This document shows, piece by piece, positions 2,999 to 64,000 of a stretch of 64,000 nt of DNA (positions are counted from its first letter, which is position 1; each line of letters starts with the position of its first letter). Position numbers and translations under genes: made by a program. Below the pieces are notes generated by a model. That model ran no database searches. It saw only the letters and a list, made by a program, of their open reading frames with translations, and was not told where the DNA came from. The stretch lies in assembly GCF_988243305.1 (NCBI RefSeq), contig NZ_OZ547136.1. One strand, 5' to 3'.

Positions 2999-4222
2999 TT
3001 ATCCCCGAATATCATTTATAAATTGACGTAACACGTTCTCTTTATCGAGCGTGCGTTCGGCATATTCACGTGCCACCGTGTTGTGTTTGGGCAGCAGAAG
3101 CGCCTGACGGATCCCCGCCACCAGCGCCTCGACCGATTCCGGTTCTACGCAAACCGCAATTCCCGGAAAGGTTTCGCAAAGCTGCCCCAGTTCTGTGTGG
3201 GCTTCCGCGGTAATCACCGCGTTACCGCCTACCGCCAGAATATTGGTCAGTTTCGACGGCAATACGGCATCTGCCGCGCCGCGTTTTTGCACCACCAGAT
3301 GGCAATCGCCCATCTTCAGCAGTGCGGGTAAAGCGTCATACGATTGCAGCGGGAAAAATTGCATGTTGCGCAGTCCACGCTGCTGCGCCATTTTTTCCAG
3401 CCGCGCTTTGCCGCCGCCCTGCCCGACAATGGCAAAAATCAGCGGTTCATCGCGCAGGAGATCGGCAGCTTCAATAACGTTTTCCAGCCCCTGCTTTTCA
3501 CCAATATTGCCGGAGTAAAGAATGATTTTTTTGTTATCCGGCAGGCCAAGCTGGTTACGAAGAGCGTCAACATCGGCATCTGCAACATGCTGAAAACGGG
3601 CAATTTCCGACCAGTTGGGGAAGAAGATGACGTTTTCCGCCGCCACGCCTTTTTCGATGGCTTTATTCATCATCGAACGCGAAATCGTGGAGACGTTATC
3701 GACGTTATGCAGTCCGCTACGTTCGAACGCCGTTGCCAGCTGTGCCACTTTGCCGCCTTTGCCTTTTCCGGCAAGGCCCAGCCCCAGCATGGCGTCCACT
3801 TCGTAATCCTGAATATGCAGCACGGTACGCGCACCAGAGAGTTTCGCCAGCAGGCGCATTCCCGGCGTGCAAAACAGCGTTGGCACCACGCCAATAATGC
3901 GATCCGGCTTCCAGCGACGTTGCGCCATCAACGGGAAAAAACTGCTGACGGCAAAACTGCCGAGATGTAACAGGCGTTTCAGGGTGCTCGGCTGTTTTGG
4001 CACGTACAGCGGGCAGCGCCACACCGTAGCGGCCCCCTCTTCTCGTTTGTATCGCCAGGCGGAATAGTTCTCGCCCACCTGCCACTGCGGGTAGTAAGGT
4101 GGTGCGGTAATGACCCGCACCTCATGACCTTGTGCCGCCAGCCATTCCACCATCTCGCCGGTGTATTTGCCGATGCCGGTTAACTCCGGCGAGTAGTTAA
4201 TGCCGTAGACCAGTATTTTCAT
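2999..4222 (-). CDS. wcaI: Colanic acid biosynthesis glycosyltransferase
   Basis: 407-aa ORF in the colanic acid gene order; GT-B-type glycosyltransferase. Confidence 0.9.
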
Positions 4223-4701
4223 AATCCGGGTACTCCGGCACGCTTCTCAGCGAGAAAATAGGCGCGGCTGTTAGCGTGAACATCGTTACTGGCGAGCAGC
4301 GCGTCCGGCGTCAGCCAGCGGTAATCGTCATGCTGCTCATCCGGCAGTATCAGATCTTCTTCAGCGACTCTGAAGCGAAAACCGAGCACCACATAGTGAG
4401 TGGTGAAATCCGTGCCGGAGAAGTTATCGTCATAAAAGTGCTGCCAGACACCGTAAAACTGGCCTGCTGTTATCGGCAGACGCAGCCCCAGTTCCGCCAT
4501 CGTCAGCCGCTCGAATGCGGCTTCCAGCGTTTCGTCTTTCTGCACGCGCCCTCCCGGCACAAACCAGTAACCCTGCGCCGGGCGGTTGGTTCTTTTGCCA
4601 AGCAGAAACTCGCCGCGACTGTTCTCGACAATAAAGTCGAGAGAGACAAGCGGGGTGGAGCGCACTACCGTGGCAAAGTCTTCCTGACGTAAAAACATCA
4701 T
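4219..4701 (-). CDS. gmm: GDP-mannose mannosyl hydrolase (Nudix)
   Basis: 160-aa ORF; 4-bp overlap with wcaI; position between fcl and wcaI. Confidence 0.9.
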
Positions 4702-5666
4702 TACCCCCGAAAGCGGTCTTGATTCTCAAGGAACCACTGGTAAGTGCTGGCAAGCCCCGCTTCCAGTGAGATTTCGTGATACCAGCCAAGCTGATGCAGG
4801 CGCGTCACATCCAGCAGTTTGCGCGGCGTGCCATCCGGTTTGCTGGCATCAAAAACCACCCGGCCTTTGTAACCCACCACTTTGGCGATGGTTTGCGCCA
4901 GCTCGCGGATAGTGCAGTCAACGCCCGTGCCGACGTTAATGTGCGACAACATCGGCTGGGTGTTCTCCAGCCAGACTTCATGCGCCAGCTCCATGACATG
5001 AATGCTCGCCGCCGCCATATCATCGACGTGCAGAAATTCGCGCATCGGTGTACCGCTGCCCCATACCACCACGTCCGGCGCATTCTGTGCCGTCGCCTCG
5101 TGGAAGCGACGCAGCAATGCTGGGATCACATGCGAATTACTCGGGTGGAAGTTGTCGTGTGGCCCGTACAGGTTGGTCGGCATGACTGAGCGGTAATCGC
5201 GTCCGTACTGGCGGTTGTATGATTCGCACAGTTTGATCCCGGCGATTTTGGCAATAGCATAAGGCTCGTTAGTCGGCTCCAGCGTGCCCTGCAACAACTC
5301 GCTTTCTGCCATCGGCTGTTTTGCCAGTTTCGGGTAGATGCAGGACGATCCGAGAAACAGCAGTTTGTTCACGTCGTTCTGATGCGCGGCGTGAATGATG
5401 TTGCTCTCAATCATCATGTTCTGGTAGATGAAATCCGCCGGATAGGTGTTGTTGGCAACAATGCCGCCCACTTTCGCCGCCGCCAGATAGACCTGGTCAA
5501 TACGTTCGCTGGCAAAGAAATCATGCACGGCGCGGCTGTCCAGCAGGTTCAGCTCGTCGCGGGTGCGTAATACCAGTTCCACATCACCGCGCTGTTCGAG
5601 CTGCCGCCTGATGGCAGAACCGACCATCCCGCGATGGCCAGCGATAAAAATGCGTTGTTTACTCAT
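4701..5666 (-). CDS. fcl: GDP-L-fucose synthase
   Basis: 321-aa [24 protein letters not shown]... with NAD(P)-binding Rossmann N-terminus; follows gmd. Confidence 0.95.
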
Positions 5667-5668
5667 GC

Positions 5669-6790
5669 TTATGACTCCAGCGCGATCGCCACGTCGTAGC
5701 CGTGAGATTTCAGCAGAGAGTGTTTTTTCGCCGCTTCGAGGTCATTAGCCACCATTTCAGACACCATCTCTCTGAGGGTGATTTCCGGTTTCCAGCCCAG
5801 TTTTTCGTGCGCTTTGGTCGGGTCGCCGAGCAGCGTTTCAACTTCTGCCGGACGGAAGTAACGCGGGTCAACGGCGATAATCACATCACCCGGTTTAACG
5901 CCCGGCGCGTCATGCCCGGTGACGGAAACCACAATGCCCTTCTCTTCAACACCCGTGCCTTCAAAGCGCAGTTTGATGCCCAGCTGTGCTGCCGCCATTT
6001 CCACGAACTGACGTACGGAGTACTGAACGCCGGTAGCGATAACAAAATCTTCCGGCTGTTCCTGTTGCAGCATCATCCACTGCATTTTTACGTAGTCTTT
6101 GGCATGGCCCCAGTCACGCAGGGAATCCATATTGCCGAGGTACAGACACGACTCCAGCCCCTGGGCGATGTTGGCGATTGCGCGGGTGATTTTGCGGGTA
6201 ACGAAGGTTTCACCGCGGCGCGGGGATTCATGGTTGAAGAGAATACCGTTACAGGCGTACATGCCGTAGGATTCGCGGTAGTTAACGGTGATCCAGTAGG
6301 CGTACAGTTTGGCGACCGCATACGGAGATCGCGGGTAGAACGGCGTGGTCTCTTTCTGCGGAATTTCCTGCACCAGACCATACAGTTCAGAGGTGGAAGC
6401 CTGATAGAAACGAGTTTTCTTTTCCAGACCGAGGAAGCGGATCGCCTCCAGCAGGCGCAGCGTACCCATCGCGTCGACGTCAGCGGTATATTCTGGTGAC
6501 TCAAAAGAGACCGCAACGTGGCTCATTGCGCCCAGGTTGTACACTTCATCCGGCTGTACTTCACGCAAAATGCGCGTCAGGTTAGAGGTATCACTCAGGT
6601 CGCCATAATGCAGATGGAATTTCGGGTTGCAGGTGTGCGGATCCTGATAAATGTGATCCACGCGCTCGGTGTTGAATGACGATGCGCGACGCTTAATACC
6701 ATGCACCTCGTAACCTTTTTCCAGCAGAAACTCTGCCAGGTAAGAACCGTCTTGTCCGGTTACACCGGTGATGAGAGCGACTTTTGACAT
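5669..6790 (-). CDS. gmd: GDP-mannose 4,6-dehydratase
   Basis: 373-aa [34 protein letters not shown]... short-chain dehydratase signature. Confidence 0.95.
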
Positions 6791-6815
6791 GTCTTATTCC
6801 TCTGTATTTTTGAAT

Positions 6816-7364
6816 TTATTCAGTTTCAACGCGTTCGCGTATCACCACTGCGGGATTCCCCCGGCAAACCACATTTGCCGGAAGCGATTTAAAAACACTG
6901 CTTCGTGCACCCACGACGGTGCCGTCGCCGATTGTGACGCCTGGGGCAACAAAGACATCGGTTGCCAGCCAGCATTTCTCGCCAATCACAATAGGCGTGG
7001 CGTTAATGGTGAAATGTTGACTTGCATGGTCGTGGCTACCGGTGCATAAATAACTTTTTTGCGATATCACCGAATGTGCGCCAATGGTTATTTCACCGAG
7101 GGTATATAAATTGACGTCATCGCCGACCCACGCGTAATCACCTAAGGTTAATTTCCACGGATAGGTAATTTTTACTGACGGACGAATAACTACGTTTTTT
7201 CCTATTTTTGCTCCGAATAAACGTAATAAAAAAGCCCGCCAGCGATACAATACTTGTGGCGACCAGGCAAATATTGTTGCCTGTACTGCCCACCATAATT
7301 GCACTTTAATAGCGTTGCCGCCCCGGAACCCTTTCGGCACCGAGAAACCGCTTAAATCTTGCAT
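6816..7364 (-). CDS. wcaF: Colanic acid biosynthesis acetyltransferase (hexapeptide-repeat)
   Basis: 182-aa ORF with left-handed beta-helix hexapeptide repeats; cluster position. Confidence 0.9.
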   Translation of the reverse strand: MQDLSGFSVPKGFRGGNAIKVQLWWAVQATIFAWSPQVLYRWRAFLLRLFGAKIGKNVVIRPSVKITYPWKLTLGDYAWVGDDVNLYTLGEITIGAHSVISQKSYLCTGSHDHASQHFTINATPIVIGEKCWLATDVFVAPGVTIGDGTVVGARSSVFKSLPANVVCRGNPAVVIRERVETE

Positions 7365-7379
7365 TGGTTTTCCTTATAT

Positions 7380-8126
7380 TCAGACTTTGTTATATAAGGC
7401 TTTCGTCTTTGAGGTAGTACGTTGGCGTAAATGCCAGGATAATTCAGCCCAAAAGCCAGGCACATGTAATATTTGTCGTTGGACTTTTTTCGCGTCAGCA
7501 CACAATTCCATATTATTGGTGGTAGATACCCCACCCATGGAAAATTCAGACACCAGGCCATTGAGTTTTTTAAATGCATAACCGGCTTTATACATTTTGG
7601 CTGCCAGCGCGTAGTCGGAAGAAACTTTATATTCCAGGTCATAACGCCATTTTTTCAAGCCGGATACAGGGAAAAATATCGCCTGATGACTGGCGGGCAG
7701 GCTGTGATAAATATACCAGCCCGGTTTGGCGCTACGTTTAATTTTATGCCCGTCGCCAAAATCCAGCAGCGCATCGCCGGTGATCATCACGTTATCTTTT
7801 TGCATTTTTAACTTACGGACAAAATTTGCGGCATTCTGATGAAAAATATCGCCCGAATTGAGAAACAACGCGAACTTGCCTTGTGCCATCGCAATGCCTT
7901 TGTTCATGGCGTCGTAGATACCGTTATCTGGCTCGCTGACAAAGCGTAGGTTAAAGATACCATTGAGATTTTCCAGATACTCACGGGTGCCGTCGTTGGA
8001 ACCGCCATCGACAACAATCCATTCGAAGCTGATATCTTCCACCTGCGCCAGATGCGCCAGCGAGGCATGTGTTTTGACTATCCCTTCGAGGTTACGAAAC
8101 GCGACAGTGATTATGCTAAGCAACAT
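7380..8126 (-). CDS. wcaE: Colanic acid biosynthesis glycosyltransferase (GT2)
   Basis: 248-aa ORF; cluster position. Confidence 0.9.
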
Positions 8127-8136
8127 GTTCTTATTC

Positions 8137-9354
8137 TTACCTCGTAATATTTAACGCTTTTCGCAAAATAAACGGACAGACGATTAAAAATGCATATTCC
8201 GGGCTAAATATCGAACCGGTAAAAAACAGCGATACCGGAGTAAAAAGATATAATTGCACGCGAAAATTGCGGTTATCACCAAAAGCGTTGATCATCATTT
8301 TTATCACTTTCCCCATGTACCACAGCGATAAAAACACTGCGAACCAGGAAAAATAAATAATCAGCAGATACAAACCATTGTCTATGGTTTTTCCGACATC
8401 CGCACCGTTAAATATTCCGAATGATGCGACATATTCATAAAGTGAGCCAAATCTGACTACACCGTCAATATGGGTCAAAGAATAACCGACCATCACCAGC
8501 GGACCGACAATACGATAATACGATGACGATCCTTCCGTGCCTAAATCACCCAGACGGGTGGAAATATAAGGAAATGCAATTACCACACCAACCAGGAATA
8601 CAGCCAGAGAAATCAATGCTAACGGTAACTTTTTCTTAATCGCCTCTTTATTCAGATATTGAAATGCCCACTCCAGCAAATAAAACAGGATAAAGGTCAT
8701 AACCCCTGAAAACGATCCGGATAATATTATCCCTGCGAGAATCATAGCATCGGTTTTAGGGGTTTTGATACCAAACTGTTTGATGCTGAGCCAAATTGAG
8801 ATTAATGCCAGAGCGAAAAATGCCGGTTCGAAATAAAGTGCTGTCGTGCGCTTGCCGCCGAATTTGATGAAATTCAGCACATAGCTGTTGCTGTAAATCA
8901 GATATTTCGAAATCGATTCCATAATACTGCTGCCGCCGGTGAGGATAATTTGCGCCATCTCCACCGCCGCCAGCGCCACCACCAACCCGACCACCAGATA
9001 AAAGAAACGTAATATCTTGCGATGGTTGTGTGGCGAAATCGTTTTAAAGCGAATACTCCACACCATGCCAATAATGATCACAATATAGACAAACAGCATG
9101 GTTGAAGTGACGTATTTACTGGCATCCAACGACTGACCAAACAGGTAGTTAAACGCCGTGAGTCCCGCGCCAATCCCCAGGGCAATCATTAATTTTTTAA
9201 CGCTGATGCGCTCTAAAAACAGCAGCAGCAAGACAGGTAAAAAAGTGACGATGGTGATGGGGAAACTTTCGCCCAGCTGGGCGATTTTGACGTTAACCAG
9301 CAGGTAAATCAGCGGCAGCAGCAGGTAGCTACAGATTCTGATAGAAGTTGACAT
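8137..9354 (-). CDS. wcaD: Colanic acid polymerase (Wzy-like, polytopic membrane protein)
   Basis: Track ORF is 429 aa; trimmed to the internal Met giving [15 protein letters not shown]... (405 aa). Highly hydrophobic. Overlaps the wcaC 3' end. Confidence 0.85.
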
Positions 9355-10546
9355 ACTCCTCCAGCATCTGTTGTCCACTGTAGGCGGCGCGGCTGCATTG
9401 GCTGAACTCAGCCAGCGTGGTGCCAAATATCGCCTTCGCGATTTCCGGTTTGCTTAACTGCACCAGTTGCAGCACGTCTTCTTCGCTGACGGTTTTACCG
9501 CCGGATTTTTGCAGCACTTCACGTGCCGCGTCGCTATGGGTGGCAATCACCGGCACGCCAATCGATAGCGCCTCACACAAAATCAGCGGGTAGTTATCGA
9601 CGCGAGAACTGAATACCAGCGCATCCATCTGATTGAGCGCGCTCATCAACTTGCGCTTGTCAGTTTCAAAGCCGTGATTAACCACGTTGCCAGCGGTGAA
9701 CGGCGAGAACTTACCAAAGGTATGCAGTTCGATTTTGTCGCCCAGCGCCATCATCTCGCGTACCAGTTGCTGGTTAGTTTTGCCGTCGTAACGCAGATCA
9801 TGCGCCACCACCGCGATTTTCGGCTTGCCCTGAGTTTCGCGCACCGGAGGCAGGTCCGCCAGAATCGCTTCGGTTGCCATATCAATGCCATTATTGATAA
9901 TCCGGCAACGCCCTGGACCGTACAGACTATTGAAAGCATCAGCCACATGCTGGCTGGGGGAAATAAACTGACAGCCCAGCGCCAGCATCTCACGGAATAA
10001 CTGGCGTTTGCCCGCCACCAGCTGGTGTGCGCGATCAATCTTCACCGGCGGATAGTTATTTAAGGTCGGGCATTTCTGGCAGCCCTTTTTCCAGCCTTCA
10101 CAACCGTCGGTAAAGGCGCAGCGTCCGGTAACGCTCCAGTGATCGTGTAACGTCCAGACCAAAGTGACATTCGGTTTGTGGTTTTTCACCTTTTCGCAAA
10201 AGCGCACCACGCTCTTAAGATTCAACCAGTAGCTGTGCAGCACATGAAAATGCAGGACCACCGGACCCGGTGTGCGAGTAATGGTGCGATATAACTCATT
10301 GAAATTGCCGAACAGATCGCGATTAAACAGACGAAACAGGGCAATGTTCGCCATCGCGGTCATCCGCGGCGTATGTTTGATGACCTGCGGATAGTTCTGA
10401 TGGCTGACGCTCTCTTTGCCGCCTTTGCCGTAACCGTAGACAAAATGTGACGCCAGCCCCTGTTGCAGCGCACGCTGGTGGAGATCTAACGCCACACCTG
10501 CCGCCCCGCCTTCCGCCAGTCGCACATTAAATTGCAGAATATTCAT
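9329..10546 (-). CDS. wcaC: Colanic acid biosynthesis glycosyltransferase (GT4)
   Basis: 405-aa ORF; cluster position. Confidence 0.9.
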   Translation of the reverse strand: MNILQFNVRLAEGGAAGVALDLHQRALQQGLASHFVYGYGKGGKESVSHQNYPQVIKHTPRMTAMANIALFRLFNRDLFGNFNELYRTITRTPGPVVLHFHVLHSYWLNLKSVVRFCEKVKNHKPNVTLVWTLHDHWSVTGRCAFTDGCEGWKKGCQKCPTLNNYPPVKIDRAHQLVAGKRQLFREMLALGCQFISPSQHVADAFNSLYGPGRCRIINNGIDMATEAILADLPPVRETQGKPKIAVVAHDLRYDGKTNQQLVREMMALGDKIELHTFGKFSPFTAGNVVNHGFETDKRKLMSALNQMDALVFSSRVDNYPLILCEALSIGVPVIATHSDAAREVLQKSGGKTVSEEDVLQLVQLSKPEIAKAIFGTTLAEFSQCSRAAYSGQQMLEEYVNFYQNL

Positions 10547-11031
10547 TTAATTACCTTCACTCGCGCTTTTTCTCCCACCACCAGCGCGTTGTCCGGGACA
10601 GAGTCGAGCACCACGCTGCCCGCGCCCACGGTGACGTTGTTACCAAGCGTGATATCACCAAGAATAATGACGTTGGCACCGAGCTCGACGCCGTTGCCAA
10701 TGTGTGGACATGCCATGTTATCGGCACCACGATTGCCGATAGTGACGCCGTGGCGAATGGTGAAATCATCCCCCGCTACCACGTTTTTATTGATCACTAC
10801 GGCGTAACCGTGATGGATAGTGAAACGGCGACCAATGGTTGCGGCTGCCTGGATTTCATAACCGAAAAAGCATTCGGTGATAATGCGATACAGCACCAGC
10901 AGCGGGGCCGCCCAAATATTGTTGAGGACGTTCTTTTTGCGCCACACCGAACAAAAATGAGCGACGCGATAGGCAAGAACCATGCAGCACGGGCGTAAAC
11001 TCCAGCTGTTGGCGCGCAGATCTTCCAGCAT
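10543..11031 (-). CDS. wcaB: Colanic acid biosynthesis acetyltransferase (hexapeptide-repeat)
   Basis: 162-aa ORF; 4-bp overlap with wcaC. Confidence 0.9.
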   Translation of the reverse strand: MLEDLRANSWSLRPCCMVLAYRVAHFCSVWRKKNVLNNIWAAPLLVLYRIITECFFGYEIQAAATIGRRFTIHHGYAVVINKNVVAGDDFTIRHGVTIGNRGADNMACPHIGNGVELGANVIILGDITLGNNVTVGAGSVVLDSVPDNALVVGEKARVKVIK

Positions 11032-11033
11032 CT

Positions 11034-11873
11034 TTAGCGCCCCCGAATACCATCAGCCAGACGTTTGCCGTTACGCACCGACAGCAGCGTCAGCAAAGTG
11101 CGCCAGGTCATGCGTTTATTGCGGATCTGGTAGAGGGTAAACAGCTGATATTTTTTGCTGGCACGGTCGAATTTGTCTTTGTGCTTGCGGTAAAAGTGGA
11201 AGTACCCGGAGAATTTTTTCGGTGACGAGGTGATCTGCATTTCACCGTGATTGATATGCAGGATCTGCGTCGCCTCTTCCACTTTCCACGGTTCGCCATA
11301 CTCCACCACCATCCGCAGGAAGATGTCGTAATCCTGTGCCGCTTTCAGTTCGGTATCAAACAAACACTCTTTGAAACGCCATGCCCAGGTAAAGACCTGA
11401 TTGCCAATGATATTGCGTTTGTAGAACAGGCGGCGTGAATACGGCGATTTGGGATACAGCGGTAAGCTTGCCGGTTGGGAATAGACTTCGCCCTGGCAAA
11501 CGTAATCGTTAGCGTACAAAAAGGCGTGAGTGACCAGTTGCTGTTTATGGGCGAGGAAGACGCTCAGACGGTTGGGGGTCCATTCATCATCATCATCGAT
11601 CCCGGTGATGTATTCCCCTTGCGCCAGCATAATAGCCTGGTTACGTACCGCGCACGCCCCGCTGTTAATGTCGTTGTGAATGTAGGTAATACGCGGATCG
11701 TTGAGGGCGGTGACGTACTGTTGCAGTTGTTCCCAGGAGGTGGAGCAATCATCCACGACGATCATCTCCCAGTTGTTGTAGTCCTGGCGCAGGACCGATT
11801 TTATCGCCCGAATCGCCAGTTGTTGGCGGTTCCAGGTCGGCATATAGATTGAGATCAGCGGATTGTCTTTCAT
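11034..11873 (-). CDS. wcaA: Colanic acid biosynthesis glycosyltransferase (GT2)
   Basis: 279-aa ORF with GT2 motif IVVDDCS. Confidence 0.9.
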   Translation of the reverse strand: MKDNPLISIYMPTWNRQQLAIRAIKSVLRQDYNNWEMIVVDDCSTSWEQLQQYVTALNDPRITYIHNDINSGACAVRNQAIMLAQGEYITGIDDDDEWTPNRLSVFLAHKQQLVTHAFLYANDYVCQGEVYSQPASLPLYPKSPYSRRLFYKRNIIGNQVFTWAWRFKECLFDTELKAAQDYDIFLRMVVEYGEPWKVEEATQILHINHGEMQITSSPKKFSGYFHFYRKHKDKFDRASKKYQLFTLYQIRNKRMTWRTLLTLLSVRNGKRLADGIRGR

Positions 11874-62094: not shown

Positions 62095-62225
62095 TTGCTC
62101 CTGCCATAACGTGAAGAAGCAATGACCTGGTGGTCCGTGACTTCCCTACGCTGGCATTATCCAGATCAGGTGATACGGGTATTTCTCAGCCTTCACGCAG
62201 AAGGGCACCCCGAGTCGTTTGATTG
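62095..62225 (-). promoter_or_regulatory. TPP (thi-box) riboswitch in the thiM leader
   Basis: Minus strand reads ...ACGACUCGGGGUGCCCUUCUGCGUGAAGGCUGAGAAAUACCCGUAUCACCUGAUCUGGAUAAUGCCAGCGUAGGGAAGUCACGGACCACCAGGUCAUUGC..., containing the conserved CUGAGA and ACCUGAUCUGGAUAAUGCCAGCG thi-box elements. Confidence 0.9.
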
Positions 62226-62313: not shown

Positions 62314-62586
62314 TTATTTGATATAAGAATCCAGCACCTTCAGAACGACATCCAGATCTTCTTCACGTTTTAGCTCATCCCCCTGGTGAACGATGTGTTC
62401 CGTCAGATGACCTTTAATCACTTCCCGCATCAGACCGTTTACCGCGCCACGGATAGCAGCAATCTGTTGTAAAACTGCAGCGCATTCGTGCGGCTCGTCG
62501 AGCATTTTCTTGAGCGCCACGACCTGGCCCTGAATCTTACTGGCACGCGCTTTCAGTTTCTGTTTATCACGGATGGTATGAGACAT
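62314..62586 (-). CDS. rcnR: Ni/Co-responsive transcriptional repressor (CsoR/RcnR family)
   Basis: 90-aa [32 protein letters not shown]... Confidence 0.95.
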
Positions 62587-62706: not shown

Positions 62707-63531
62707 ATGACCGAATTTACAACTCTTCTTCAGCAAGGAAACGCCTGGTTCTTCATCCCCAGCGCCATCTTACTTGGTGCGCTTCATGGCCTGGAACCAG
62801 GGCACTCAAAAACGATGATGGCGGCGTTTATCATCGCCATCAAAGGCACCATTAAACAGGCGGTGATGCTCGGACTGGCAGCAACCATTTCGCATACCGC
62901 AGTGGTCTGGTTGATTGCCTTTGGCGGGATGGTGATCAGCAAGCGCTTTACTGCTCAATCAGCAGAACCGTGGCTCCAGTTGATTTCCGCAGTGATCATT
63001 ATTGGCACCGCGTTCTGGATGTTCTGGCGTACCTGGCGCGGCGAACGAAACTGGCTGGAGAATATGCACGAGCATGATCATGAGCATCATCACCACGATC
63101 ACGAAGATCACCACGACCATGGACATCATCACCATCACGAACATGGCGAGTATCAGGATGCCCATGCACGAGCCCATGCCAATGACATTAAACGACGCTT
63201 TGATGGTAGAGAGGTCACCAACTGGCAAATTTTGTTATTTGGCTTAACCGGTGGCCTTATCCCCTGCCCGGCAGCAATTACCGTGCTGTTGATTTGCATT
63301 CAGTTGAAAGCCCTGACACTGGGCGCAACACTGGTCGTCAGTTTCAGCATTGGCCTGGCGTTAACGCTGGTCACCGTAGGCGTTGGCGCAGCAATCAGCG
63401 TTCAGCAGGTCGCAAAACGCTGGAGCGGATTTAACACTCTCGCTAAACGCGCCCCCTATTTTTCCAGTCTGTTGATTGGCTTAGTTGGTGTGTATATGGG
63501 CGTACATGGCTTCATGGGCATAATGCGATAA
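62707..63531 (+). CDS. rcnA: Nickel/cobalt efflux permease with His-rich cytoplasmic loop
   Basis: 274-aa ORF; central HEHDHEHHHHDHEDHHDHGHHHHHEHGE loop between TM segments. Confidence 0.95.
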   Translation: MTEFTTLLQQGNAWFFIPSAILLGALHGLEPGHSKTMMAAFIIAIKGTIKQAVMLGLAATISHTAVVWLIAFGGMVISKRFTAQSAEPWLQLISAVIIIGTAFWMFWRTWRGERNWLENMHEHDHEHHHHDHEDHHDHGHHHHHEHGEYQDAHARAHANDIKRRFDGREVTNWQILLFGLTGGLIPCPAAITVLLICIQLKALTLGATLVVSFSIGLALTLVTVGVGAAISVQQVAKRWSGFNTLAKRAPYFSSLLIGLVGVYMGVHGFMGIMR

Positions 63532-63633: not shown

Positions 63634-63749
63634 TTCATTTACACTTTTTACGAAATCATGGGATCACTAACAAAATATCGCTTGTCAGTTATATTGTATG
63701 GCAGGAAAGATATGCGACTGATATTACAGATCCCCAAAGTGGAGAGTTT

Positions 63750-63965
63750 ATGACCATTAAAAATAAGATGTTGCTGGGTGTGCTTTTGCTGGTTACCAGT
63801 GCCGCCTGGGCCGCACCAGCCACCGCGGGTTCGACCAATACCTCGGGAATTTCTAAGTATGAGTTAAGCAGTTTCATTGCTGACTTTAAGCATTTCAAAC
63901 CAGGCGATACCGTCCCAGAGATGTACCGCATAAGGAGATCCCCTCATAATTTCCCCAAAGCGTAA
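63750..63965 (+). CDS. rcnB: Periplasmic Ni/Co homeostasis protein RcnB, apparently C-terminally truncated and fused to IS10-derived sequence
   Basis: Track ORF is 131 aa; trimmed to MTIKNKMLLGVLLLVTSAAWA... with SD ggagag. Only 71 codons before the stop, and the last ~10 codons (IRRSPHNFPKA) come from the IS10-like end starting at 63935. Confidence 0.6.
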   Translation: MTIKNKMLLGVLLLVTSAAWAAPATAGSTNTSGISKYELSSFIADFKHFKPGDTVPEMYRIRRSPHNFPKA

Positions 63966-64000
63966 CCATGTGTGAATAAATTTTGAGCTAGTAGGGTTGC
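63935..64000 (-). mobile_element. IS10 (Tn10-family) inside-end sequence with the last 18 codons of the transposase; element continues beyond the window
   Basis: Minus strand of 63944-64000 encodes ...ATLLAQNLFTHGYALGKL-stop, followed by ggggatctc, matching my recollection of the IS10 transposase C-terminus and inside end. The expected terminal CTGA is not present at the junction. Confidence 0.5.

What the first reader, a model, noticed from the sequence alone, without database searches (positions are those of the whole stretch)
63935..64000. IS10-like end cutting rcnB short at the window edge, with an atypical junction
The last 66 nt read, on the minus strand, as the C-terminal codons of the IS10 transposase (...THGYALGKL-stop) followed by the inside-end sequence. 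rcnB reads through its first ~61 codons and then into this sequence, ending after 71 codons. The canonical terminal CTGA of IS10 is not found at the junction (the window has taag before gagatcccc), suggesting a truncated end, a variant element or a rearranged junction. Disruption of rcnB would be expected to alter Ni/Co efflux homeostasis.
Basis: partly seen in the sequence, partly recalled or inferred. Interest (0 to 1): 0.5.

Follow-up and report, generated by a model that had tools for sequence, protein, structure and literature searches.

The report
IS10 variant inserted in rcnB
An ordinary jumping gene (IS10) has cut the nickel/cobalt gene rcnB in half, but its last four bases are TAAG instead of the usual CTGA, and this rare variant end still seems able to move.

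Summary
rcnB matches intact alleles up to base 63930 (codon 60 plus one base). Bases 63935-64000 are 100% identical to the inside end of IS10-Right, with the transposase C-terminus on the minus strand. The four bases where CTGA should be read TAAG (63931-63934).

This is not a truncation, a rearrangement or an artefact. The same TAAG end occurs in 2 of 5,426 complete E. coli genomes (strains 142 and S103EC) at an unrelated site. There the element is 1,329 bp, with a normal outside end, an intact transposase, a perfect 9-bp target duplication abutting TAAG, and an empty site in other strains. Its closest canonical relative differs only in those four bases.

All 64 other IS10 inside ends I read carry CTGA. 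No plasmid, species-representative genome, metagenome contig or viral contig holds TAAG.

The 9 bases before TAAG in the window (TGTACCGCA) fit IS10 target preference at the 99th percentile. The truncation register falls at the 8th.

A draft genome 100% identical over 12.6 kb has intact rcnB, so the insertion is recent. It probably inactivates RcnB.

The insertion itself is ordinary. The mobile non-canonical terminus is a small, real curiosity. The right end lies outside the window.

The parts
62314..62586 (-). rcnR, Ni/Co-responsive repressor, intact (context)
   Evidence: ORF list; annotated as rcnR at the equivalent position in L001 and L007.
62707..63531 (+). rcnA, Ni/Co efflux protein, intact 274 aa (context, upstream of the insertion)
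   Evidence: annotated as rcnA.
63750..63930 (+). 5' fragment of rcnB: 60 codons plus 1 base, identical to intact alleles
   Evidence: identity stops at query base 931 = window 63930; identical to the first 181 nt of intact rcnB in L008.
63750..63965 (+). Truncated fusion ORF of 71 aa: RcnB residues 1-60 plus 11 residues (IRRSPHNFPKA) read from the IS10 end
   Evidence: It has no Pfam hit, whereas intact RcnB hits PF11776 over residues 52-101.
63922..63930 (.). TGTACCGCA, the target 9-mer. It is predicted to be repeated after the outside end of the IS, beyond the window.
   Evidence: It scores at the 99th percentile on a matrix built from 60 canonical IS10 flanks. By analogy, TGCTCTGCA is duplicated around the sister element in L002.
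63931..63934 (+). TAAG, the non-canonical terminal tetranucleotide of the IS10 inside end (canonical: CTGA)
   Evidence: The same four bases are in L002 and L003. TAAG is absent from intact rcnB at this point.
63931..63953 (+). Inside-end terminal inverted repeat of IS10 (bp 1-23); bp 5-23 are canonical
   Evidence: identical to the canonical copies in L004 and L006 from bp 5 on.
63937..63940 (.). GATC (Dam) site of the inside end, retained
   Evidence: Read directly. Its regulatory role is from my own knowledge of IS10.
63944..64000 (-). 3' end of the IS10 transposase gene (last 18 codons plus stop), running off the window
   Evidence: translation. The CDS begins at element position 14 in L002, which corresponds to 63944 in the window.

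Best explanation
A copy of IS10-Right whose inside-end terminal tetranucleotide is TAAG instead of CTGA has inserted by ordinary transposase-mediated cut-and-paste into rcnB. The target 9-mer is TGTACCGCA (63922-63930), with the inside end facing the 5' part of the gene. The insertion is recent and leaves a 71-aa RcnB stub lacking most of the RcnB domain. rcnR and rcnA are untouched, so RcnA-dependent Ni/Co efflux probably loses its RcnB modulation.

Shown:
- the junction;
- the variant terminus;
- its presence on a complete, normally duplicated element at another site;
- its derivation from a canonical IS10 by a single 4-bp block change.

Inferred:
- The window copy is complete. I predict 1,259 further bp, ending ...GGGGATTCATCAG, then TGTACCGCA, then CCGATGAGTAC....
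- Transposase still cuts this end at the normal distance from its binding site (about bp 7-23) despite the changed bp 1-4, probably inefficiently.
- The phenotype is that of rcnB loss.
For: - Junction anatomy.
- The TAAG end is identical over 73 nt in strains 142 and S103EC. These are the only 2 of 918 IS10-bearing records, covering 3,052 places.
- In those strains the element is 1,329 bp, has the canonical outside end, encodes the canonical transposase WP_001339197.1, and has TGCTCTGCA on both sides abutting TAAG.
- The reconstructed empty site is 100% identical over 600 bp in other strains.
- L031 carries an IS10 that differs from the L002 element only in having CTGA instead of TAAG.
- Register test: the 9-mer before TAAG is at the 99.1st percentile (window) and 99.95th (L002). 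The 9-mer before GAGATC is at the 8th percentile.
- Draft genome L008 is 100% identical over 12,628 bp and has intact rcnB.
- The transposase-binding region is bp +7 to +23, and loss of nucleosides at +5 to -5 does not hinder complex assembly (PMC3159471).
- The Pfam RcnB domain at residues 52-101 is mostly lost.
Against: - The right end of the element and the second copy of the target lie beyond base 64000. Completeness, the duplication and the fate of the 3' part of rcnB are therefore not shown for this copy.
- T+2, the base flipped during hairpin processing, is an A here (PMC2705183). From my memory of Huisman 1989 and Haniford & Kleckner 1994, bp 1-3 mutations impair the chemical steps, so a TAAG end is expected to transpose poorly.
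- Only two insertion sites of the variant are known.
- Each complete genome with the variant holds a single IS10 copy.
Confidence: 0.8

Rival explanations
1. The IS10 end is truncated by 4 bp or the junction is rearranged. TAAG is then flanking or filler DNA left by a deletion or other illegitimate event after a canonical insertion, and this end is dead.
For: CTGA is missing. All 64 other inside ends read have CTGA. The right end cannot be seen.
Against: - TAAG is not part of rcnB at this position.
- The identical four bases occur at an unrelated site, with a perfect 9-bp duplication abutting TAAG, an element of exactly 1,329 bp and a verified empty site.
- In the truncation register the flanking 9-mer fits IS10 target preference at only the 8th percentile, against the 99th for the other register.
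Confidence: 0.06
2. A canonical IS10 inserted in rcnB and its terminus then mutated in place to TAAG, independently of the copy in strains 142 and S103EC. No TAAG end has ever moved.
For: It would avoid having to explain how a non-canonical end moves. Terminal bp 1-3 are thought to matter for catalysis (my own knowledge; T+2 role).
Against: It needs the same four-base block change twice, in elements that otherwise show 0-2 differences from canonical IS10. The variant is absent from 3,050 other IS10 places in E. coli, from 913 IS10-bearing plasmid records (1,172 places) and from 52 metagenome ends.
Confidence: 0.05
3. TAAG is a sequencing or assembly artefact, such as a chimeric join or an error at a contig end inside a repeat.
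For: The feature sits 70 bp from the window edge, inside a repeated element. The junction is found in no searched collection.
Against: The same 70 bases, TAAG included, are present in two independently made complete assemblies from Switzerland and Australia. rcnB sequence is perfect right up to the junction.
Confidence: 0.03
4. It is a different, IS10-related insertion sequence with its own terminal repeat, not IS10 itself.
For: PGAP labels all these copies 'ISVsa5 family'. Related IS4-family elements have other termini (my own knowledge).
Against: Bases 63935-64000 are 100% IS10-Right. The complete sister element differs from a canonical IS10 (L031) only at the four terminal bases and encodes the canonical transposase.
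Confidence: 0.02

Closest known systems
IS10-Right of Tn10 (IS4 family; annotated by PGAP as 'IS4-like element ISVsa5 family')
   Same: - 66 of 66 visible bases from bp 5 on, including the transposase C-terminus, stop codon, GATC site and inverted-repeat bp 5-23.
- In the sister copy: 1,329 bp, the canonical outside end, an identical 402-aa transposase and a 9-bp target duplication.
- The target 9-mer fits the NGCTNAGCN-like preference.
   Different: Inside-end bp 1-4 are TAAG, not CTGA. All 64 other ends read, and all but 2 of 918 E. coli records, are canonical. The change removes the flipped T+2 and alters the 3'-terminal nucleotide of the transferred strand.
IS10 copy in E. coli 18SZHZ655Rt chromosome (L031): same sublineage, canonical end
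   Same: Identical to the TAAG element of strains 142 and S103EC at all 1,325 other positions, including two rare SNPs near the outside end (element positions 1247 and 1283).
   Different: It has CTGA. This shows TAAG is a derived, single-block change. Whether the window's copy carries the two SNPs cannot be seen.
Laboratory terminal-base-pair mutants of IS10/Tn10 ends (Huisman et al. 1989; Haniford & Kleckner 1994; recalled from memory, not read here)
   Same: They change bp 1-3 while leaving the transposase-binding region intact. They are expected to be bound and synapsed but handicapped at cleavage or hairpin steps.
   Different: Those were single-base laboratory mutations scored as defective. 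Here all of bp 1-4 are replaced in a natural element that has nevertheless inserted at two or more sites.
rcnB (yohN) deletion mutants of E. coli K-12
   Same: Loss of the periplasmic RcnB with rcnR-rcnA intact. Deletion gives higher Ni/Co resistance and lower metal accumulation (PMC7917058, citing Bleriot et al. 2011).
   Different: Here a 60-residue N-terminal stub (signal peptide plus about 39 mature residues) fused to 11 IS-encoded residues may still be made. No phenotype was measured.

Membership tests
IS10 (IS4 family) | Encodes the IS10 DDE transposase (402 aa) | tested here: met
   Only the last 18 codons plus stop are in the window. They are identical to canonical IS10. The sister element encodes WP_001339197.1, the same protein as canonical copies.
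IS10 (IS4 family) | Inside-end terminal inverted repeat, transposase-binding part (bp 5-23: GAGATCCCCTCATAATTTC) | tested here: met
   Exact match at 63935-63953.
IS10 (IS4 family) | Terminal 5'-CTG(A) at each end | tested here: not met
   63931-63934 is TAAG. All 64 other inside ends read carry CTGA. The outside end of the sister element is canonical (...CATCAG); that of the window copy is not visible.
IS10 (IS4 family) | 9-bp target-site duplication | not testable with these tools
   The right end lies beyond base 64000 and the source genome was not found. The feature is met in the sister element (TGCTCTGCA on both sides, empty site verified).
IS10 (IS4 family) | Target preference resembling NGCTNAGCN | tested here: met
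   TGTACCGCA scores 4.56 bits, the 99.1st percentile of window 9-mers, on a matrix from 60 canonical flanks. The median canonical flank scores 5.8.
IS10 (IS4 family) | Element length of 1,329 bp | not testable with these tools
   Only 70 bp are in the window. The sister element is exactly 1,329 bp.
RcnB (PF11776) functional protein | Complete RcnB domain (residues 52-101 of the 112-aa protein) | tested here: not met
   The truncated 71-aa product has no Pfam hit. Intact RcnB scores 68.9 bits.

The most novel reading that the evidence does not exclude
A natural IS10 in which all four terminal base pairs of the inside end are replaced is still transposition-proficient. The change is CTGA to TAAG, so the flipped T+2 is lost and the transferred strand ends in ...TTA-3' instead of ...CAG-3'. 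This would mean IS10 transposase sets its cleavage and joining position purely by distance from its binding site and tolerates a non-canonical terminus. A likely origin is loss of the true tip, followed by capture of four flanking bases as a new tip.
Probability: 0.6. Interest if true: 0.45.

Novelty: new variant of a known kind. Interest (0 to 1): 0.33.

Why it matters
For the genome, this is a routine recent IS insertion that probably knocks out RcnB and may raise nickel/cobalt tolerance.

The part of wider interest is the terminus. The conserved CTG/CAG tip of IS10 and IS50 ends is regarded as necessary for the chemical steps of transposition. Here is a natural end with all four tip bases replaced that has inserted cleanly at one fully verified site, with a second junction matching as far as the window reaches.

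If confirmed experimentally, it would be a natural test case for how much of the terminal sequence the transposase really needs. It also warns annotators that an IS end lacking its canonical tip is not necessarily truncated or dead.

Tried and rejected
- **Source genome.** Four exact-protein look-ups of products across the junction all came back not on record: 71 aa, 131 aa, 65 aa and an 80-aa antisense ORF.
- **First ThiM look-up.** I gave wrong coordinates, so it failed. The corrected one search found a 100%-identical relative, but with intact rcnB.
- **C-terminal RcnB fragment.** It returned only contigs that happen to start at, or carry mutations before, the internal Met58 of normal rcnB. 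None had an IS10 junction.
- **Exact-pattern scans for the TAAG end.** GTDB representative genomes, metagenome contigs and viral contigs gave 0 hits. Plasmid and phage BLAST gave no TAAG end.
- **Literature.** No paper mentions IS10 together with rcnB. The classical end-mutagenesis papers are not held, so the statements about bp 1-3 mutants rest on memory.
- **Other readings considered and dropped.**
  - P-nucleotide-like mis-resolution of the transposon hairpin predicts a palindromic or shortened tip, not TAAG.
  - TAAG as the last 4 bp of a shifted target duplication fails in both loci.
  - The TAAGGAG created at the tip looks like a Shine-Dalgarno sequence, but no start codon follows at a usable spacing.
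- **Origin of TAAG.** I could not establish how it arose.

Full report
**Observation**

The last 600 bases of the window hold rcnA (62707-63531) and the start of rcnB (ATG at 63750). Against 5,426 complete E. coli genomes, the last kilobase aligns at up to 100% identity, but only to window base 63930. Intact rcnB encodes 112 aa, and after ...GAGATGTACCGCA it continues CCGATGAGTAC. In the window, TAAGGAGATCCCCTCATAATTTCCCC... follows instead.

The ORF therefore runs for 60 RcnB codons, then 11 codons (IRRSPHNFPKA) and a stop at 63963-63965. Bases 63935-64000 match the inside end of IS10-Right exactly (expected by chance 0). On the minus strand they read the last transposase codons...NLFTHGYALGK(L*). 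Canonical IS10 copies have CTGA immediately before GAGATCCCC; the window has TAAG.

**What the TAAG is**

A 90-nt query across the junction found two complete genomes that match from 'GCATAAG' onward at 100%: strain 142 (environment, Switzerland) and S103EC (human, Brisbane). A clean 70-nt query starting at TAAG showed these are the only 2 of 918 IS10-bearing records (3,052 places) with this end.

In both genomes the element lies in the same genomic island near argP/lysS. The two 12-kb loci are identical. The element has these properties:
- It is exactly 1,329 bp.
- It ends in the canonical outside end ...GGGGATTCATCAG.
- It encodes the canonical transposase WP_001339197.1.
- It is flanked by TGCTCTGCA on both sides, with the left copy directly abutting TAAG.

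Joining the two flanks with a single copy of the 9-mer gives a sequence that is 100% identical over 600 bp to uninterrupted DNA in other strains. That insertion is therefore a simple, textbook IS10 insertion by an element whose tip was TAAG.

**Origin of the variant**

Apart from the four tip bases, the L002 element differs from the commonest IS10-Right sequence at only two positions near the outside end, element positions 1247 and 1283. Six records carry both of these SNPs. One of them, the chromosomal copy in strain 18SZHZ655Rt (L031), is identical to the L002 element at all 1,325 other positions but has CTGA. TAAG is therefore a derived state produced by one block change, not gradual divergence and not a different IS.

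**How invariant is CTGA?**

Every other inside end I could read has CTGA:
- 7 E. coli copies;
- 5 copies in species-representative genomes of Aeromonas, Shewanella, Providencia, Vibrio and Xenorhabdus;
- 52 metagenome contigs.

No TAAG end was found in 913 IS10-bearing plasmids, the phage collection, GTDB representatives, metagenome contigs or viral contigs.

**Register test**

From 60 distinct 9-mers flanking canonical inside ends I built a position matrix. It reproduces the known preference: G2, C3, A6, G7, C/T8.

| 9-mer tested | Sequence | Score (bits) | Percentile of window 9-mers |
|---|---|---|---|
| Before TAAG, window | TGTACCGCA | 4.56 | 99.1 |
| Before TAAG, L002 | TGCTCTGCA | 7.82 | 99.95 |
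| Before GAGATC (truncation register), window | CCGCATAAG | -16.36 | 8.09 |
| Before GAGATC (truncation register), L002 | CTGCATAAG | -16.36 | 8.09 |

The median canonical flank scores 5.8 bits. TAAG is also not present in rcnB at this point. Transposase therefore joined an end whose first base was the T of TAAG.

**Age and host**

The 25 kb left of the junction is at best 98.0% identical to any complete E. coli genome, with a mosaic pattern of 92.8-99.9% per kb. A draft genome, GCA_029483465.1 (L008), is 100% identical over 12,628 bp up to the junction and has intact rcnB. The insertion is therefore recent within that lineage. Strains 142 and S103EC belong to a different background in this region (98.0% or less), so the variant element is present in two or more lineages at two sites.

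**Mechanism and consequence**

Shown:
- rcnB is interrupted after codon 60.
- The Pfam RcnB domain spans residues 52-101, and the 71-aa product no longer matches it.
- rcnR and rcnA are intact.

Inferred:
- RcnB function is lost. In K-12, rcnB deletion increases Ni/Co resistance and lowers metal accumulation (PMC7917058, citing Bleriot et al. 2011).
- The transposase-binding region (bp +7 to +23) is unchanged. Missing nucleosides between +5 and -5 do not hinder, and in fact enhance, complex assembly at the inside end (PMC3159471). The variant end can therefore be bound and paired with the normal outside end, and cleavage would occur at the usual distance.
- What is unexpected is the chemistry. 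T+2 is the base flipped out during hairpin processing and promotes hairpin resolution, although an abasic +2 substrate is still processed slowly (PMC2705183). The variant has A at +2 and a different 3'-terminal nucleotide.
- From memory of the classical mutagenesis (Huisman et al. 1989; Haniford & Kleckner 1994; not readable here), bp 1-3 mutations impair post-synaptic steps. The variant is probably a poor but not dead substrate. This would fit its rarity and the single IS10 copy in each complete genome that has it, while canonical IS10 reaches 42 places per genome.
- A plausible origin is loss of the true tip at some earlier site, followed by cleavage at the normal spacing, which captured four flanking bases. 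This is speculation; I found no trace of that site.

**Rivals**

- Truncation or rearrangement: contradicted by the sister element, the empty site and the register test.
- Independent in-place mutation: requires the same four-base change twice.
- Artefact: contradicted by three independent assemblies.
- A different IS: contradicted by 100% identity and by L031.

The main gap is that the right end of this copy lies outside the window. Completeness, the TGTACCGCA repeat and the presence of the rest of rcnB are predictions, not observations.

**Comparison with the known, and verdict**

This is IS10-Right in every tested respect except the defining CTG(A) tip at one end, so I file it as a variant of IS10 rather than a plain member. 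The IS insertion in rcnB is ordinary. The non-canonical yet evidently usable terminus is a genuine, rare, previously unremarked feature as far as the searched collections and papers show, and is of modest specialist interest.

**What led nowhere**

- Look-ups for the source genome.
- Literature searches for the classical end mutants or for IS10 in rcnB.

Noticed in passing
window 39001-63930: This 25-kb stretch (mdtD-baeSR-gat-fbaB-yegT..thiMD-rcnRA) is at best 98.0% identical to any of 5,426 complete E. coli genomes. The pattern is mosaic, from 92.8% per kb around 59-60 kb to 99.9%. A draft genome (GCA_029483465.1) is nevertheless 100% identical over the last 12.6 kb. The source lineage seems unrepresented among complete RefSeq genomes.
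   Followed up: partly
L002 7200-7332; L031-L034: A small IS10 sublineage (6 records among complete E. coli genomes) carries two SNPs near the outside end: element positions 1247 C>G and 1283 C>T, which are bp 83 and 47 counted from the outside end. They lie in the region of the IHF site and the pIN/transposase leader. The TAAG variant arose within this sublineage. Any effect of the SNPs on expression is unknown.
   Followed up: partly
window 63689-63931 (minus strand): The junction creates an ATG on the minus strand from the last base of the element plus 'TG' of the flank, 9 nt after the transposase stop codon. It opens an 80-aa ORF antisense to rcnB. The TAAG copy in L002 also makes A|TG, where a canonical end with the same flank would give G|TG. 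Probably meaningless; the product is not on record anywhere.
   Followed up: partly
window 62126-62222 (minus strand): TPP riboswitch upstream of thiM (Rfam RF00059, 71.8 bits). Ordinary and expected.
   Followed up: yes
L021 (ENA ERZ28750118 contig_678) 3865-11190: A metagenome contig places Gram-positive-type sortase and SpaA pilin genes directly next to E. coli rcnB/yehA sequence. This is most likely a chimeric assembly.
   Followed up: no
L007 18307-18765 versus window about 54190: The best-matching complete genomes carry an IS200/IS605 tnpA between gatY and fbaB that is absent from the window. The alignment is split there, with about 700 bp extra in the subject.
   Followed up: no
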